Assembly (NCBI GenBank): GCA_963748825.1
Contig: CAVVKN010000003.1
Coordinates: 66,552 to 130,551 of the forward strand
Length of the DNA: 64,000 nucleotides
Source of the DNA: Methanotrichaceae archaeon
GTDB lineage: Archaea; Halobacteriota; Methanosarcinia; Methanotrichales; Methanotrichaceae
Reading direction: 5' to 3'
Positions 16,846-20,586 of this stretch are shown piece after piece. The first letter of the stretch is position 1, and every line of letters begins with the position of its first letter. A program made the translations under genes and the position numbers. The notes beneath the pieces were generated by a model. It did not search any database. It worked only from the letters and a program-made list of their open reading frames with translations, and was not told the origin of the DNA.

Positions 16846-17601
16846 TTGCTGGTCTTTGAGAAACAGTCCAATCCCTACCTCAATGCAGTCCATTCTCAGG
16901 TCGAACAGGATGTCTTGAGGAGGCTTCAGAAATCCTTTGACAACTTCTTTCGAAGAGTTCGCGAAGGGGCTCGAAAAAAAGGCTACCCCAGGTTCAAGTC
17001 CATTAACCACTATCGCTCGGTTACCTATCCACAGTCCGGGTTTAAGCTGAATGGCTCTCGGCTGACACTTTCAAAAATTTTCGGCACAATTAGAACCTTT
17101 GTGCATAGGCCGATTGTGGGCAGGATCAAAACCTGTTCGATCAAGCGAGATAAGACAAATGCATGGTATGTCATATTTACGACCGAGCTTGAGAATCCAA
17201 CCAAGCAGGAGACCAAGACCACGATCGGAGTAGACCTTGGCATCACTCATGCAGCCGTAACTTCGGACGGTCAGTACTTCGACTATCCAAAGTACTATTT
17301 CCAAGCTGAAAAGAAGAATCGAGCTGCCAATAAATCGTTGTATCGCAAGGAGCTCGGTTCCAATAACCGGAAGAAAGCCCAGACAAAGTTGGCCCGGATC
17401 GCAAAGAGGGTAACCAACCTTCGAGAGGAGTTCTTGCATCAGGTATCCTGGAAACTTGTAAACTCGGCTGACAGAATCATATTCGAAGATCTGAGCATCC
17501 AGAATATGCTTAAGAACCATTGTCTGGCAAAGCATATTCAGGATGTCTCATGGGGAAAGCTAATACGCTTCACGGTGAGCAAGGCTGAAAGAGCTGGCTG
17601 A
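16846..17601 (+). pseudogene. tnpB: Truncated IS200/IS605-family TnpB (RNA-guided nuclease) remnant
   Basis: KGYPRFKS, YPQSGF, GVDLG (RuvC-I) and IIFEDL (RuvC-II) are present. The N-terminal segment is missing, and the ORF stops at KAERAG before the Zn finger and RuvC-III. Confidence 0.85.
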
Positions 17602-17611
17602 ATCCAGAAGA

Positions 17612-17785
17612 TCATGCTAAATCTCTCACCGCCTCCAGCACCTTTTTCGCCGCCGAGCACCTCTCCGCCCTGGAGGTATCTGCCGCCATCTGCTCCAGAT
17701 CCCCGACGTTGATTTGGCCCATCTTGAACTTTGTAACAAGAATGCCGGTCATGACGGCATCGCTATGCTTCGCTTTCTTAGCCAA
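17612..17785 (-). CDS. Small 57-aa hypothetical protein (not in the ORF track)
   Basis: TTG start after a G-rich RBS; MAKKAKHSDAVMTGILVTKFKMGQINVGDLEQMAADTSRAERCSAAKKVLEAVRDLA; host-like codon usage. Confidence 0.6.
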   Translation of the reverse strand: MAKKAKHSDAVMTGILVTKFKMGQINVGDLEQMAADTSRAERCSAAKKVLEAVRDLA

Positions 17786-17919
17786 TTTTCCCCCTACCTA
17801 ACACGCCTGCCTGGATCTCTCTGGCCTGGCCCCTCAGGTAGTCGATGGAGGAGTAATTAGCTTGTGCTCAGCCGTTCGACCGCCAACTACAAATATTCAT
17901 AACGATCATATAGATAGTT

Positions 17920-18420
17920 TGCCGCTTCACGCCATGATAGGGTGGCGGGCGTGCCGTGGGCTTAACGTATCTGATGATGCTCTGATGACAAGGGTGTTTG
18001 CTCCACCATGGAGCAACATGCCGCTAGCTCCTAAAGGCTGGTTGGTCTTGATCCCTTGGTACAGGAGATGCATGCCGTCGTGGCACTGCATTTGGCTACG
18101 AGCCTGTGAGGCTGATATTTCGGCGGGCTGAAAAAGTTGCGCGCTGTAACAGGCGCAGTAATCTGCCGGATCTCACGCTAATACACGGTCGGGGCATGAA
18201 ACGGCACAAGTAGAAGTCGAAGGCGAGAGGGCGAGCACGAGGCCCCATGAGAACGGGTTCCCATAAAACGGACGCTGTGTGAGATTCCAGCGCTTGTGCC
18301 GCCTTCGAGCCCGGCTTATTAGAGTCGAGCTTCGGGCAGGGTCAGGCCAACACTATGCGGTGATTGGCTCCTCCTAAAAGGGCGCTGTGGATCGGCGCTG
18401 GCCTGCCTGAGACTTGATGT
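17920..18420 (+). ncRNA. Candidate large structured non-coding RNA (unassigned family)
   Basis: More than 12 complementary helices covering nearly the whole span, including two crossing (pseudoknot) pairings; AT-rich promoter-like tract at 17890-17915; no credible ORF. Confidence 0.6.
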
Positions 18421-18937
18421 ATCATTTTCTTGGCTATTTCTTTTGGGGTGGAGATGGTCTTTTCTAACTTGAAGCGAAAGCCTTTTATCTCGGCAATTGA
18501 CGTATGGTATATTGGCGAAAGTCGATGGCAGTTTTTCCCCTCCTACATCCAATTGACTTTCTCCTCCCACCTTCTTATTCATCAAACGCTTTCATAAGGG
18601 CCTAAAGCATCCTGCCTCAGCTTTCTAAAAGAAAGACTTATAGCCTGACTCGTCCTTCATTCCTTCAAGAACGCCAGCCATAAGGAGAAGAGGCAATTAA
18701 GTCGGAGCGATGAGGCTTGAGGACTGGCCAGGCCCGCAGCTCCATTTATCTCATTCAGCATAATCGATTTTATGGGCTCGCTGCAGGTTGTACGCACCGC
18801 CTCATACAACAGCTCGGTATGATGAAAAACGGCTAAAAGAGCTCTTTGAGCTAAGTCGTCATTTCATAGTTTATAGGCATAAAACAAAATCCTCTCTGCT
18901 ATTGATCTAATCAATATGCCCCGACATAAATTTGTAA

Positions 18938-20586
18938 CCTGACCTCCCCAAAGTTTAGGCACACATATGAAGTGCATCCAGGATTTCTCGCTGTTTCTTG
19001 GTAATCTCAGTTGTGATTTTCTCGCCATCCGGCAAGATCATTAGCTTGATCTTTTCTAGTTCAGTGAGCAGTCCTTCCACTGAATATCGTTTATTCAGCT
19101 CGGCATTGACCATGAGCCTGGTCAGCTTCATTCTTAAGATCAGAGCAAGAAAAGCGACGAACAGATAGCCACTCAAACTGTTATTGGTTCTTAGGTTTGT
19201 TGGCATCAGTTCAATGTCGTTCTTCAATACATCGAATCCTTTCTCGACGACATCCTTGCTTCTGTAAAGTGAAAGACAATCATTCCAAGAAAACTCGCCC
19301 CGATACAGCAGAATAAACTTACCCATCTTATTGATGGCCTGAGAGACGGCATTTTTTCTGAGGGAGACCTCAAATTTTCCGTCAATTGCTTTCCATTCGA
19401 TGAACTTGGCATCCTTTTTTGCCGTTTCCCTGAAAACCACACTCGGAATCATCCAGCTCTTTAAGGTCACAGCCTTGAGCCGTTCCATTAAATCGTATAG
19501 CCGCTTATAGAGAGTACTTCGTTCCAACTGCTCTCGCTTCTGATCGTAATATGCGTATCCTTTCAGCTTGTTTTTGCCTACCTCGATGTCCACAGGCATG
19601 ACAAAAAGCGGTTCTTTCTCGTAGAGTTCCAAATTCTCAGGATCATCGATGCTGCTATGGATGGCGGATATCGCCTCTTTGACATTTTTGAGAGTACTTG
19701 TTGGGGGGATGATGAACGACAAATCCGCTGAGACCATCTCATGGATATTGGCAGTCGAGAAGAAACCACGATCCATGATCATAGTATAATTCTGAACACC
19801 CAGGGCCTTTATTTTTTTGACTGTATTCGTGAGGGTAGTTACATCCGAGATGCTTCCTGGATATAGATCATACATTACCGGTATGCCTAGATCCTTGTCC
19901 ACAATCAGAGACAGGTTGATCTGAGGCAGATCGAGACCATCTCGATTATAACCGTATTCCAGTAGGCCTATGTTTTGAGAGTAAGAGGACAAAGAAGTGA
20001 TATCATAAACCAGAGTGCTGCATGTTGAGATTCTTTGGATTAGTCGATGAGCGAATTCCAGATTCGCGGTGCTCTCACCGATACGGCTTAGCATTCGAGA
20101 AAGGCTCTGAGAGGATAGGGGAAGATCAGGATGGTCTTCCGATAGAATTGTGCCTTCATACCAGCTTTGGATATGGGTTAATGCTCGGGGACGCAAAGCA
20201 AAATTCATAGCCAGAGTTAAAACAGGCCAGACTTCTTTGCTGGGCAAGACTCCAGAGAGAATTTCGTCTAGTTTAAGGTCTTCTGTTATCTTTTTCAGTG
20301 GAACGAATTCGCCATGTGATAGAACTTTCTTTGGTATTTTTCCCTGAGATCGGACCTTGACAGGAACTCCATTAACATTCTTGCCGAGGTACTTGCTCTT
20401 CTGGCGAATTTTCTTCTTTTCTTTGTCGTAGTAAGGAGTGATTTTGTATATGTATTCAATTCCACTTATATTTTTTATTCGATTAAACGATTTCATGTGC
20501 ATATTTAGGCACATAATATTATTTATAGATTTCGGCTATAGATAACGAAAATTGTTTAAATATGCCTAAATCATGGGGAGGTCAGG
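18938..20586 (-). mobile_element. IS1634-family insertion sequence, complete
   Basis: TIRs CCTGACCTCCCCAaagTTTAGGCA / CCTGACCTCCCCAtgaTTTAGGCA; 6-bp target duplication TTGTAA at 18932-18937 and 20587-20592. Confidence 0.92.
18955..20514 (-). CDS. IS1634-family DDE transposase
   Basis: YDITSLSSY, GYNRDG, IMDRGF and YRSKDVVEKGFDVLK motifs; intact 519-aa ORF. Confidence 0.92.
   Translation of the reverse strand: MCLNMHMKSFNRIKNISGIEYIYKITPYYDKEKKKIRQKSKYLGKNVNGVPVKVRSQGKIPKKVLSHGEFVPLKKITEDLKLDEILSGVLPSKEVWPVLTLAMNFALRPRALTHIQSWYEGTILSEDHPDLPLSSQSLSRMLSRIGESTANLEFAHRLIQRISTCSTLVYDITSLSSYSQNIGLLEYGYNRDGLDLPQINLSLIVDKDLGIPVMYDLYPGSISDVTTLTNTVKKIKALGVQNYTMIMDRGFFSTANIHEMVSADLSFIIPPTSTLKNVKEAISAIHSSIDDPENLELYEKEPLFVMPVDIEVGKNKLKGYAYYDQKREQLERSTLYKRLYDLMERLKAVTLKSWMIPSVVFRETAKKDAKFIEWKAIDGKFEVSLRKNAVSQAINKMGKFILLYRGEFSWNDCLSLYRSKDVVEKGFDVLKNDIELMPTNLRTNNSLSGYLFVAFLALILRMKLTRLMVNAELNKRYSVEGLLTELEKIKLMILPDGEKITTEITKKQREILDALHMCA

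What the first reader, a model, noticed from the sequence alone, without database searches (positions are those of the whole stretch)
17920..18420. ~500-nt highly structured, doubly pseudoknotted non-coding RNA candidate
Seen, 5' half: CACGCC/GGCGTG (17928-17953); tandem box C/D-like CTGATGATGCTCTGATGA (17971-17988); CAAGGG/CCCTTG (17989-94/18053-58) enclosing TTGCTCCA/TGGAGCAA and a second hairpin; TACAGG/CCTGTG enclosing ATGCA-TGCC/GGCA-TGCAT; TTCGGCGGG/TCTGCCGGA (18119-27/18162-70) enclosing a GAA/AGTA internal loop and TGCGC/GCGCA. Seen, core: CTAATA/TATTAG and GTCGGGGC/GCCCGGC close a domain in which GGCACAAG (18203-10) pairs with 18293-300 while TCGAAGGC (18217-24) pairs with 18301-08. 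These helices cross, giving a pseudoknot on one contiguous 3' strand. The loop of hairpin 18273-92 (GTGAGAT) pairs with ATCTCAC (18170-76), a second pseudoknot. Seen, 3' end: a multibranch domain (18332-45/18398-410) holding two or three hairpins. G-U pairs and purine-rich linkers favour the plus strand, and an AT-rich promoter-like tract precedes it. I do not recognise it as RNase P, SRP, a group I/II intron or a HEARO RNA. Inference: a large structured ncRNA (ribozyme or RNP scaffold, possibly L7Ae-bound) that may be undescribed in archaea.
Basis: partly seen in the sequence, partly recalled or inferred. Interest (0 to 1): 0.85.

Follow-up and report, generated by a model that had tools for sequence, protein, structure and literature searches.

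The report
Abundant structured RNA family in Methanothrix
This stretch is one copy of a roughly 500-base, elaborately folded non-coding RNA gene that occurs in several copies in Methanothrix methane-producing archaea, matches no catalogued RNA family, and is covered at very high depth in environmental RNA libraries, but its job is unknown.

Summary
It is one of 3 long copies in this genome. It was found in 85 of 105 genomes of the order and 58 of 58 of the genus. A covariance model found it in none of 76 genomes of the four sister families. Record titles name Methanothrix/Methanotrichaceae.

No Rfam family matches. The genome has separate RNase P and SRP RNAs. RNA-library contigs from 4 studies cover 17928-18419 at summed depths of 10^2 to 3x10^6.

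A comparative model of 119 pairs is 94.1% paired, and 42 pairs changed on both sides against 21.4 in shuffles.

Its long-range helices and both pseudoknots do not. The 5' end pairs with 18193-18206 (P0). 18294-18317 pairs with 18214-18240 (P11). 17944-50 probably pairs with 18401-07, which would be one pseudoknot.

It is not a TnpB guide RNA, a MITE, a coding gene or an intron. Function is unknown. My best guess is an abundant trans-acting RNA or RNP core. I found no description in the papers I searched.

The parts
17876..17916 (+). Conserved AT-rich leader, including AAATATTCATAA at 17891-17902. I read it as a BRE/TATA-type archaeal promoter, about 20-30 nt ahead of the first paired base.
   Evidence: Homology between copies starts sharply at 17876. 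Many columns are invariant or nearly so across 49 copies. The promoter role is inferred from a recalled archaeal consensus and was not mapped.
17917..18425 (+). The RNA itself, about 500 nt. Both ends are approximate.
   Evidence: P0 needs bases from 17920 onward. RNA-library contigs cover 17928-18419. Many genomic copies end at query position 543-544, which is window 18418-19. Strand comes from G-U pairs that are the commonest type at 12 paired positions and from the fold z-scores.
17920..18206 (+). 5' domain, closed by helix P0 (17920-33 with 18193-206, 14 bp).
   Evidence: 91% of cells paired. 7 of 14 pairs changed on both sides, 43 such cells, in 87 distinct copies. 91.3% paired on A2.
17944..18407 (+). 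P1, GGCGGGC 17944-50 with GCCTGCC 18401-07. It crosses P0, so it would be a pseudoknot tying the 5' domain to the 3' end.
   Evidence: 97-98% paired, but only 1 pair has a double change. The rival partner 18332-40 is 87-89% paired, with 13 A-C cells, and it breaks in one 4-copy lineage. I call P1 probable, not settled.
17953..18189 (+). P2, GCCGTG 17953-58 with CACGGT 18184-89. It encloses P3 (17959-61/17979-81), the P4 domain and the central rod.
   Evidence: 99% paired. CG to UA in 10 of 49 copies. 3 of 6 pairs with double change in 87 copies.
17989..18058 (+). P4 domain, which is optional: CAAGGG/CCCTTG closing hairpin 17998-18004/18010-16 and a second variable hairpin.
   Evidence: Covariation. 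Genomic copies join query 113 directly to 188-189 in 3 places. RNA contigs skip 47-84 nt here (table 5).
18067..18104 (+). Hairpins P6 (18067-72/18087-92 plus 18074-76/18082-84) and P7 (18094-96/18102-04).
   Evidence: 98-100% paired, mostly invariant or with one-sided changes.
18105..18177 (+). Central rod: P8 (18105-11/18171-77), P9 (18119-26/18163-70) and P10 (18136-45/18152-62).
   Evidence: for the central sub-alignment 18052-18194 that holds P6 to P10: 37 pairs, 95.8% paired, and 43 cells changed on both sides against 9.0 +/- 2.6 in shuffles (0 of 500 reach it). Slid partners give 35-51% paired. Model R1 scores 170.3 bits here and matches nowhere else in the window.
18214..18317 (+). Middle domain. 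Long irregular stem P11 (18214-40 with 18294-317) closes three hairpins: 18244-46/18255-57, 18259-61/18270-72 and 18273-77/18288-92.
   Evidence: Alignment-free duplex folding of the two strands in 87 distinct pairs: median z -3.4, and 94% have z below -1.5. The inner 13 pairs are 84% paired on A2, with 6 pairs changed on both sides. The hairpins are 97-98% paired.
18327..18410 (+). 3' domain. Hairpin A (18345-49/18365-69 plus 18351-53/18360-62, whose loop is UUCG in many copies), a short variable hairpin, and hairpin C (18381-87/18393-99).
   Evidence: Hairpin A is 93% paired with 24 double-change cells. Hairpin C is 96% paired with 10.
18425..18444 (+). T-rich tract (TTTTCTT ... TTTCTTTT). 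I read it as an archaeal oligo-T terminator.
   Evidence: Sequence. The role is inferred from recalled knowledge of archaeal termination and was not mapped.
18445..18782 (+). Two further non-coding modules (to about 18582 and to 18782) that travel with the RNA gene in some copies. Role unknown.
   Evidence: Copy end points recur at query 707 and 907.
17607..17789 (+). Remnant of the upstream cassette. In relatives that cassette holds an MC1 gene and a DUF1699 gene. Here only its tail is left, abutting a truncated TnpB-like ORF.
   Evidence: homology to the -806..-625 part of L010. (gene order in L010). (Pfam DUF1699 E 1.4e-55, MC1 E 3.1e-39).

Best explanation
Shown:
- Window 17917-18425 (+) is one member of a multicopy gene family for a roughly 500-nt non-coding RNA. 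I found the family only in Methanotrichaceae among the genomes searched.
- The fold has three domains: a 5' domain closed by P0, a middle domain closed by P11, and a 3' hairpin cluster.
- It has many compensated base-pair changes and one dispensable peripheral arm (P4).
- A conserved AT-rich leader precedes it and a T-rich tract follows it.
- RNA libraries from four unrelated studies hold it at very high contig depth.

Inferred:
- It is transcribed on its own from a BRE/TATA promoter and ends at the oligo-T tract.
- 17944-50 pairs with 18401-07, a pseudoknot that clamps the 3' end onto the 5' domain.
- The several gene copies serve high output, as with rRNA or tRNA genes.

Most likely mechanism, which is a guess: a stable, very abundant, trans-acting RNA that works as the folded core of a ribonucleoprotein or as an RNA-only machine. 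It would be comparable to OLE, SRP or RNase P RNA in kind of role, but not in ancestry.
For: - Repeat family. There are 3 long copies in the own genome at 100, 92 and 85% identity. 85 of 105 genomes of the order match, and 58 of 58 of the genus. Model R1 found it in 42 of 74 sampled genomes of the family and in 0 of 76 genomes of four other families. The conserved motif gave 95 stretches in genome contigs. All 80 listed are titled Methanothrix, Methanosaeta, Methanotrichaceae, 'uncultured Methanosarcinales' or 'uncultured archaeon'.
- Structure. 119 pairs are 94.1% paired. 42 pairs changed on both sides, against 21.4 +/- 2.8 in shuffles (0 of 500 reach it). There are 157 such cells against 46.4. 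Slid partners give 38-44% paired.
- Strand. G-U is the commonest pair at 12 positions. Fold z is -3.08 on the plus strand and -1.41 on the minus strand.
- Not coding. The four ORFs inside keep their frame length in 19-36 of 83-87 copies and stay open in 6-47. They have no Pfam hit.
- RNA libraries. Runs X1, X2, X3 and X10 come from 4 studies. 6228, 4388, 5154 and 801 contigs were laid. Summed depth over 17928-18419 runs from 2.5x10^2 to 3.4x10^6. In X3 and X10 the contigs that lie on the flanks have depth 0.46-13.
- Stable loci. A MoaA-like gene lies upstream of the copy in 4 genomes.
- Not a known family. There are 0 Rfam matches at gathering score, and nothing overlaps the region at E up to 10.
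Against: - No function, partner or activity is shown.
- Contigs show neither strand, ends nor level, and the tool warns that contig depth is a poor measure of expression. DNA can sit in RNA libraries, although that would not explain a 10^4-10^6-fold excess over the flanks.
- The copies are kin, so the shuffle controls overstate the signal.
- P1 has almost no double changes, and a nested alternative (18332-40/18402-10) is 87-89% paired.
- The comparative fold of the window copy lies 28 kcal/mol above its unconstrained minimum (-184.9 against -213.3).
- Multicopy, modular and tandem behaviour, and IS neighbours in the window, also fit a selfish repeat.
- DUF1699, the commonest neighbour, is in 148 of 151 genomes of the class, including 73 of 76 that lack the RNA. 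So it is not a dedicated partner.
Confidence: 0.6

Rival explanations
1. It is the non-coding part of a selfish or mobile repeat: a MITE-like element, or the guide RNA (omega-RNA type) of an IS200/IS605 or similar transposon. On this view its structure and abundance serve its own spread.
For: - It is multicopy, with sharp 5' boundaries, recurrent end points, deletion variants and tandem copies.
- In the window it sits between a truncated TnpB-like ORF (OrfB_IS605, E 1.9e-21) and an IS4-like DDE transposase.
- The neighbouring DUF1699 protein has a C-terminal helix-turn-helix that weakly resembles transposase DNA-binding domains (Z 5.3-5.6).
Against: - A TnpB relative lies within 3 kb of 1 of 107 distinct copies, and the IS4-like gene near 3 of 107.
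- There are no terminal inverted or direct repeats of 14 nt or more in 17800-18850.
- Copies sit at shared chromosomal places across genomes.
- There are 0 matches in viral contigs, plasmids and phages.
- There is no HEARO or other Rfam hit.
Confidence: 0.12
2. It is a long 3' untranslated region, or a stable processing product, of the upstream DUF1699 (and MC1) messenger. It would act in cis or accumulate as a decay-resistant fragment.
For: - DUF1699 lies upstream on the same strand and ends within 400 nt in 33 of 107 distinct copies.
- 27 of 75 DUF1699 loci with room have the RNA or part of it downstream.
- MC1 lies upstream in 13 of 107.
Against: - 74 of 107 copies have no DUF1699 gene upstream, and the window copy is one of them.
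- The roughly 45-nt AT-rich leader is conserved in all 49 aligned copies whatever lies upstream.
- Other DUF1699 paralogues are followed by ordinary genes.
Confidence: 0.08
3. It is a very divergent member of a known RNA class: RNase P, SRP, a group I or II intron, OLE, ROOL, GOLLD, or a C/D box RNA.
For: Its size, ornate fold and abundance resemble these classes. The window copy has C/D-like boxes at 17971-17988.
Against: - No Rfam model matches, even at E up to 10.
- The genome's own RNase P RNA (216 bits) and SRP RNA (193.5 bits) lie elsewhere.
- Both C/D-like boxes occur in only 11 of 49 copies.
Confidence: 0.03
4. It is a protein-coding gene or a decayed pseudogene, and the pairings are incidental.
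For: ORFs of 50-89 codons overlap it on both strands.
Against: The frames are not kept. Length differs by a multiple of 3 in only 19-36 of 83-87 copies. The ORFs have no Pfam match. Compensated pair changes are present.
Confidence: 0.02

Closest known systems
OLE RNA (ornate, large, extremophilic RNA of anaerobic Firmicutes). Properties recalled, not read here.
   Same: It is a lineage-restricted ncRNA of about 500-600 nt with many conserved helices and very high cellular abundance. It was found by comparative analysis before any function was known, and a small protein gene often lies beside it.
   Different: - There is no sequence or model match.
- This RNA is archaeal, not bacterial.
- It is present in several copies per genome, where OLE is single copy (recalled).
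- The neighbouring gene (DUF1699) is far more widespread than the RNA.
ROOL and GOLLD RNAs, large ornate RNAs that form RNA-only multimeric cages (abstract of bioRxiv 10.1101/2024.12.08.627333, seen in the listing).
   Same: Large, ornate, multi-domain RNAs of unknown function that match no protein partner.
   Different: - There is no Rfam match.
- This RNA is chromosomal, with 0 hits in viral contigs, phages or plasmids. ROOL and GOLLD are often phage-borne (recalled).
- There are no tRNA genes in the window.
- Multimer formation is untested.
Archaeal RNase P RNA and SRP RNA.
   Same: Abundant, stable, pseudoknotted or long-range-paired archaeal RNAs with their own promoters, acting as RNP cores.
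   Different: Both are present separately in this genome. They are single copy and universal, whereas this RNA is confined to one family.
TnpB/IscB omega-RNAs (HEARO).
   Same: Structured, often pseudoknotted RNA found in repeated copies near IS elements. A TnpB-like fragment lies 275 nt upstream in the window.
   Different: There is no HEARO match. A TnpB relative lies near 1 of 107 copies. The RNA does not overlap a transposon end.

Membership tests
Any Rfam 15 family, including RNaseP_arch, Archaea_SRP, group I/II introns, OLE, ROOL, GOLLD and HEARO | Match to the family's covariance model | tested here: not met
   There are 0 matches at gathering score in the whole window. At E up to 10 over 17500-18900 there are 3 matches, all outside 17920-18420 and 30-55 bits below their cut-offs.
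RNase P RNA / SRP RNA | Being the genome's only gene of that kind | tested here: not met
   RNaseP_arch is at C9:33744-34048 (216.2 bits). Archaea_SRP is at C23:164670-164984 (193.5 bits).
Box C/D sRNA (L7Ae-bound) | Conserved C (RUGAUGA) and D (CUGA) boxes | tested here: not met
   Both boxes are present in 11 of 49 and 16 of 87 copies. L7Ae binding itself is not testable here.
TnpB/IscB omega-RNA | Fixed position at the end of a tnpB or iscB gene | tested here: not met
   A TnpB relative lies within 3 kb of 1 of 107 distinct copies.
MITE / non-autonomous IS | Terminal inverted repeats and target-site duplication | tested here: not met
   No inverted or direct repeat of 14 nt or more in 17800-18850.
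Group II intron | Domain V/VI core and a 5' GUGYG start | tested here: not met
   No Intron_gpII or group-II-D1D4 match. The unit starts GUUUGCC. The consensus is recalled.
snoRNA-like rRNA guide (U3-type) | Extended complementarity to pre-rRNA | tested here: not met
   There are 0 complementary 10-, 11- or 12-mers to one 8.8-kb rRNA operon region, against shuffled means of 4.4, 0.94 and 0.35.
Large ornate ncRNA as a descriptive class (OLE, ROOL, GOLLD type) | More than 400 nt, many covarying helices, no coding potential, restricted lineage | tested here: met
   This is a resemblance in kind, not shared ancestry.

The most novel reading that the evidence does not exclude
This is a new class of large RNA, specific to Methanothrix and its family, that folds into a three-domain, pseudoknot-clamped body and is among the most abundant transcripts of these methanogens in wetlands, peat and sediments. 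On this reading it acts as an RNA machine in its own right: a ribozyme, a self-assembling RNA particle, or the core of an unknown RNP. It would be neither a regulator of neighbouring genes nor a selfish repeat.
Probability: 0.3. Interest if true: 0.9.

Novelty: categorically new. Interest (0 to 1): 0.8.

Why it matters
Methanothrix is a major acetate-using methane producer in wetlands, rice fields and digesters (recalled). An uncatalogued 500-nt structured RNA held at very high depth in environmental RNA libraries of four studies would be a large, unexplained part of its cell biology.

Large structured RNAs of unknown function are rare. Past ones (RNase P, group II introns, OLE, ROOL/GOLLD) led to new biochemistry. 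To my knowledge, few if any such RNAs are known from archaea beyond the universal ones (recalled).

There is also a practical side. Such an RNA can take up many reads in metatranscriptomes, and it gives spurious ORFs on both strands.

Tried and rejected
- Known families: Rfam at gathering score and at E up to 10 gave nothing on the region. RNase P and SRP RNA lie elsewhere in the genome.
- TnpB guide RNA: rejected, 1 of 107 copies has a TnpB relative nearby.
- MITE: rejected, no terminal repeats.
- Coding: rejected.
- rRNA guide: no complementarity beyond chance. Only one operon region was tested.
- Viral or plasmid origin: 0 matches of the motif in viral contigs. No blastn match in plasmids or phages.
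- DUF1699 as a dedicated partner: weakened. It is in 148 of 151 genomes of the class, against 43 of 151 for the RNA. Other paralogues have ordinary neighbours.
- DUF1699 fold: the model is confident (pLDDT 93.5). Foldseek gave no match at E 0.001 or better; the best hits were HIV integrase cores at E 0.016-0.08 and TM about 0.3. VIA-align gave no Z of 8 or more. The best were DRTGG-like alpha/beta domains (Z 6.3) for residues 1-87 and transposase, terminase or homeodomain helix-turn-helix domains (Z 5-6) for residues 88-135. These are leads only.
- The search for homologous proteins on DUF1699 listed only near-identical proteins and added little.
- My own candidate 17917-25/17942-50 was dropped because 5'-side changes are not compensated.
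- The all-against-all covariation scans were too noisy to use alone.
- Parts without cover: bins 17805-17886 and 18420-18460 had depth 0 in all four runs, and most flank bins had depth 0 in X1 and X2.
- The fall in summed depth from the central rod to the 3' domain (up to 10^4-fold in X1) might mean a more stable 5' product. Contig depth cannot rank parts of a gene, so I make no claim.
- Backward joints in RNA contigs (for example 18197 to 17939, depth 658) are about 0.1% or less of local depth. They may be chimeras, so I make no claim of circular RNA.
- Literature: 8 searches found no description. One search returned only papers that seem to mistype another family's number. One search was badly framed and uninformative. 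I saw only search listings and the starts of abstracts and read no paper. Supplements are closed, so a mention there would be missed.

Full report
**What is there.** The region is not unique. The own genome (2.88 Mb, 25 contigs) holds three long copies, at 100, 92 and 85% identity, plus fragments. Homology between copies starts sharply at window 17876. It runs to 18782 in one copy and to about 18586 in the other. A blastn search of the order found it in 85 of 105 genomes and in 58 of 58 genomes of the same genus, usually several times per genome. Copy end points recur at query positions 543-544, 707 and 907, which are window 18418-19, 18582 and 18782. Variants also occur that join position 113 directly to 188-189. 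Three genomes of 1-2 contigs held 3-5 matches each, of which 2-3 were long. Record titles of related loci name Methanothrix, Methanosaeta and Methanotrichaceae.

**It matches nothing catalogued.** Rfam 15 gave no match at gathering score anywhere in the 64-kb window. A permissive scan of 17500-18900 gave only three chance-level matches, all outside the region. The genome's RNase P RNA and SRP RNA are elsewhere, with full-length matches. Eight literature searches returned nothing on such an RNA or on DUF1699 in archaea. I saw listings and abstract starts only.

**It is not coding.** The four ORFs that overlap it keep a length difference divisible by three in only 19-36 of 83-87 copies, and stay open in 6-47. 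They have no Pfam match.

**Structure.**
- I aligned 49 copies from the own genome and relatives (A2, 72% mean column identity). I then aligned 87 distinct near-full copies with nhmmer.
- RNAalifold found two unexpected long-range helices.
- Helix-by-helix counts, a central-domain test and alignment-free duplex folding lead to a three-domain model.
- In the 5' domain, P0 pairs the 5' end (17920-33) with 18193-206. It has 14 bp, and 7 of them changed on both sides. For example, UU/AA becomes GC/GC in a whole lineage.
- Inside P0, P2 (17953-58/18184-89) encloses P3, the dispensable P4 arm, hairpins P6 and P7, and a long rod P8-P9-P10.
- The middle domain is a long irregular stem, P11 (18214-40/18294-317), that closes three hairpins.
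- The 3' domain holds hairpins A and C.
- The highly conserved GGCGGGC at 17944-50 is complementary to 18401-07 (97-98% paired). Because this crosses P0 it would be a pseudoknot. It has almost no double changes. A nested alternative (18332-40/18402-10) is 87-89% paired, but it breaks in one lineage where P1 holds.

**Test of the whole model.**
- On A2 the model has 119 pairs, and 94.1% of cells are paired.
- 42 pairs changed on both sides, against 21.4 +/- 2.8 in shuffles. There are 157 such cells against 46.4. No shuffle of 500 reaches either value.
- Pairing drops to 38-44% when partners are slid by 1-3 columns.
- The copies are kin, so these controls overstate the signal somewhat.
- For the window copy, the comparative fold lies 28 kcal/mol above the unconstrained minimum.

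Its local hairpins score well. Its four long-range or crossing helices score 64-80%. The second proposed pseudoknot loses to P8, which is compensated in exactly the lineages that vary. The C/D-like boxes are both present in 11 of 49 copies.

**Strand and ends.** G-U is the commonest pair at 12 positions of the model. Those would be A-C mismatches on the other strand. The plus strand has the better z-score. A roughly 45-nt AT-rich leader is conserved in all 49 copies whatever lies upstream. A T-rich tract follows at 18425-44. Reading these as promoter and terminator is inference.

**Expression.** A word search found parts of the stretch in 20 runs of 12 studies, 10 of them on record as RNA. I laid four RNA runs from four studies: sediment, freshwater, wetland and peat. 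Between 801 and 6228 contigs per run lay on 17928-18419, with summed word depths from 2.5x10^2 to 3.4x10^6. In the two runs with any cover on the flanks, that cover was 0.46-13. Contigs also show forms that skip 47-84 nt of the P4 arm, matching the genomic deletion variants. Contigs cannot show strand, ends or true level, and the tool warns against ranking by depth. Still, a difference of four to six orders of magnitude is hard to explain by DNA carry-over.

**Distribution.**
- A covariance model of the central domain (R1, 146 positions) hit 42 of 74 sampled genomes of the family and 0 of 76 in four other families of the class.
- R1 hit the window only once, on the plus strand at 18052-18194, at 170.3 bits.
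- The conserved 21-nt motif occurs in 95 stretches of the genome collection. All 80 listed come from this lineage.
- The motif occurs in 0 viral contigs.
- There is no blastn match in plasmids or phages.

**Neighbourhood.**
- Among 107 distinct copies, a DUF1699 gene lies just upstream on the same strand in 33, and an MC1 chromatin-protein gene lies further up in 13 (Pfam).
- The window copy has lost both and keeps only the tail of that cassette.
- Four genomes share a MoaA-like gene upstream of one copy, so at least some loci are stable chromosomal places.
- A TnpB relative lies near only 1 of 107 copies, and there are no terminal repeats.
- DUF1699 is present, in 2-21 copies, in 148 of 151 genomes of the class. 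So it cannot be a partner dedicated to this RNA.
- The DUF1699 model (pLDDT 93.5) has a small alpha/beta domain and a C-terminal helix-turn-helix, with only weak fold matches.

**Verdict.**
- The main interpretation, a large, structured, undescribed archaeal ncRNA, is supported.
- What the RNA does is open.
- I favour an abundant trans-acting RNA or RNP core.
- A selfish repeat and a UTR-derived fragment are the main rivals.
- There is no complementarity to the rRNA operon.

Noticed in passing
L010:2477-2884 (-) and many loci L056-L135. No intact copy next to the window's RNA gene.: DUF1699 (PF08004) is a strikingly conserved multicopy gene. The 80 best loci are 81-100% identical across species and paralogues. 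There are 2-21 copies per genome in 148 of 151 genomes of the class. The AlphaFold model is confident (pLDDT 93.5), with an alpha/beta domain plus a helix-turn-helix, and has no strong fold match. Its function is unknown and there is no archaeal literature on it in the library.
   Followed up: partly
window 17612-17785 (-); L010:3032-3262 (+): A small ORF of 57-76 codons, antisense to the MC1-DUF1699 spacer, is conserved between the window and a relative (MAKKAKHSDAVMTGILVTKFKMG...). It has no Pfam match. It could be a real small protein or just conserved spacer DNA.
   Followed up: no
window 16846-17601 (+) and 18955-20514 (-): A truncated TnpB-like ORF (OrfB_IS605, 251 codons, with the C-terminal part missing) and an intact-looking 519-codon IS4-like DDE transposase flank the RNA gene. 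The upstream cassette seems to have been cut by the insertion.
   Followed up: partly
window 18445-18782 (+): Two non-coding modules downstream of the RNA are co-repeated in some copies, with end points at 18582 and 18782. They match no family, and their role is unknown.
   Followed up: no
window 17937-18197 (RNA contigs, tables 5c and 7): A few RNA contigs join a downstream place back to the 5' leader, for example 18197 to 17939 through ...CGGCAC|GUUUGCCGC.... Their depth is about 0.1% or less of local depth. They may be template-switch chimeras, tandem copies or circular forms. I cannot tell which.
   Followed up: no
G000:C13:26741-26883 (+): A weak full-length match to the central-domain model (27.9 bits, E 3.8e-5). 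It is possibly a much more diverged paralogue in the same genome.
   Followed up: no
G000 contigs C5, C7, C10, C18: Four full-length 16S rRNA matches with identical scores in a 2.88-Mb assembly. That is a high count for a genome of this size, or a sign of repeated contig ends.
   Followed up: no
L017:58-788 and L017:1501-2368; G053:C201:3185-3785: There are tandem copies of the RNA gene about 1.4 kb apart. There is also a compact variant that lacks both the P4 arm and query positions 557-791.
   Followed up: no
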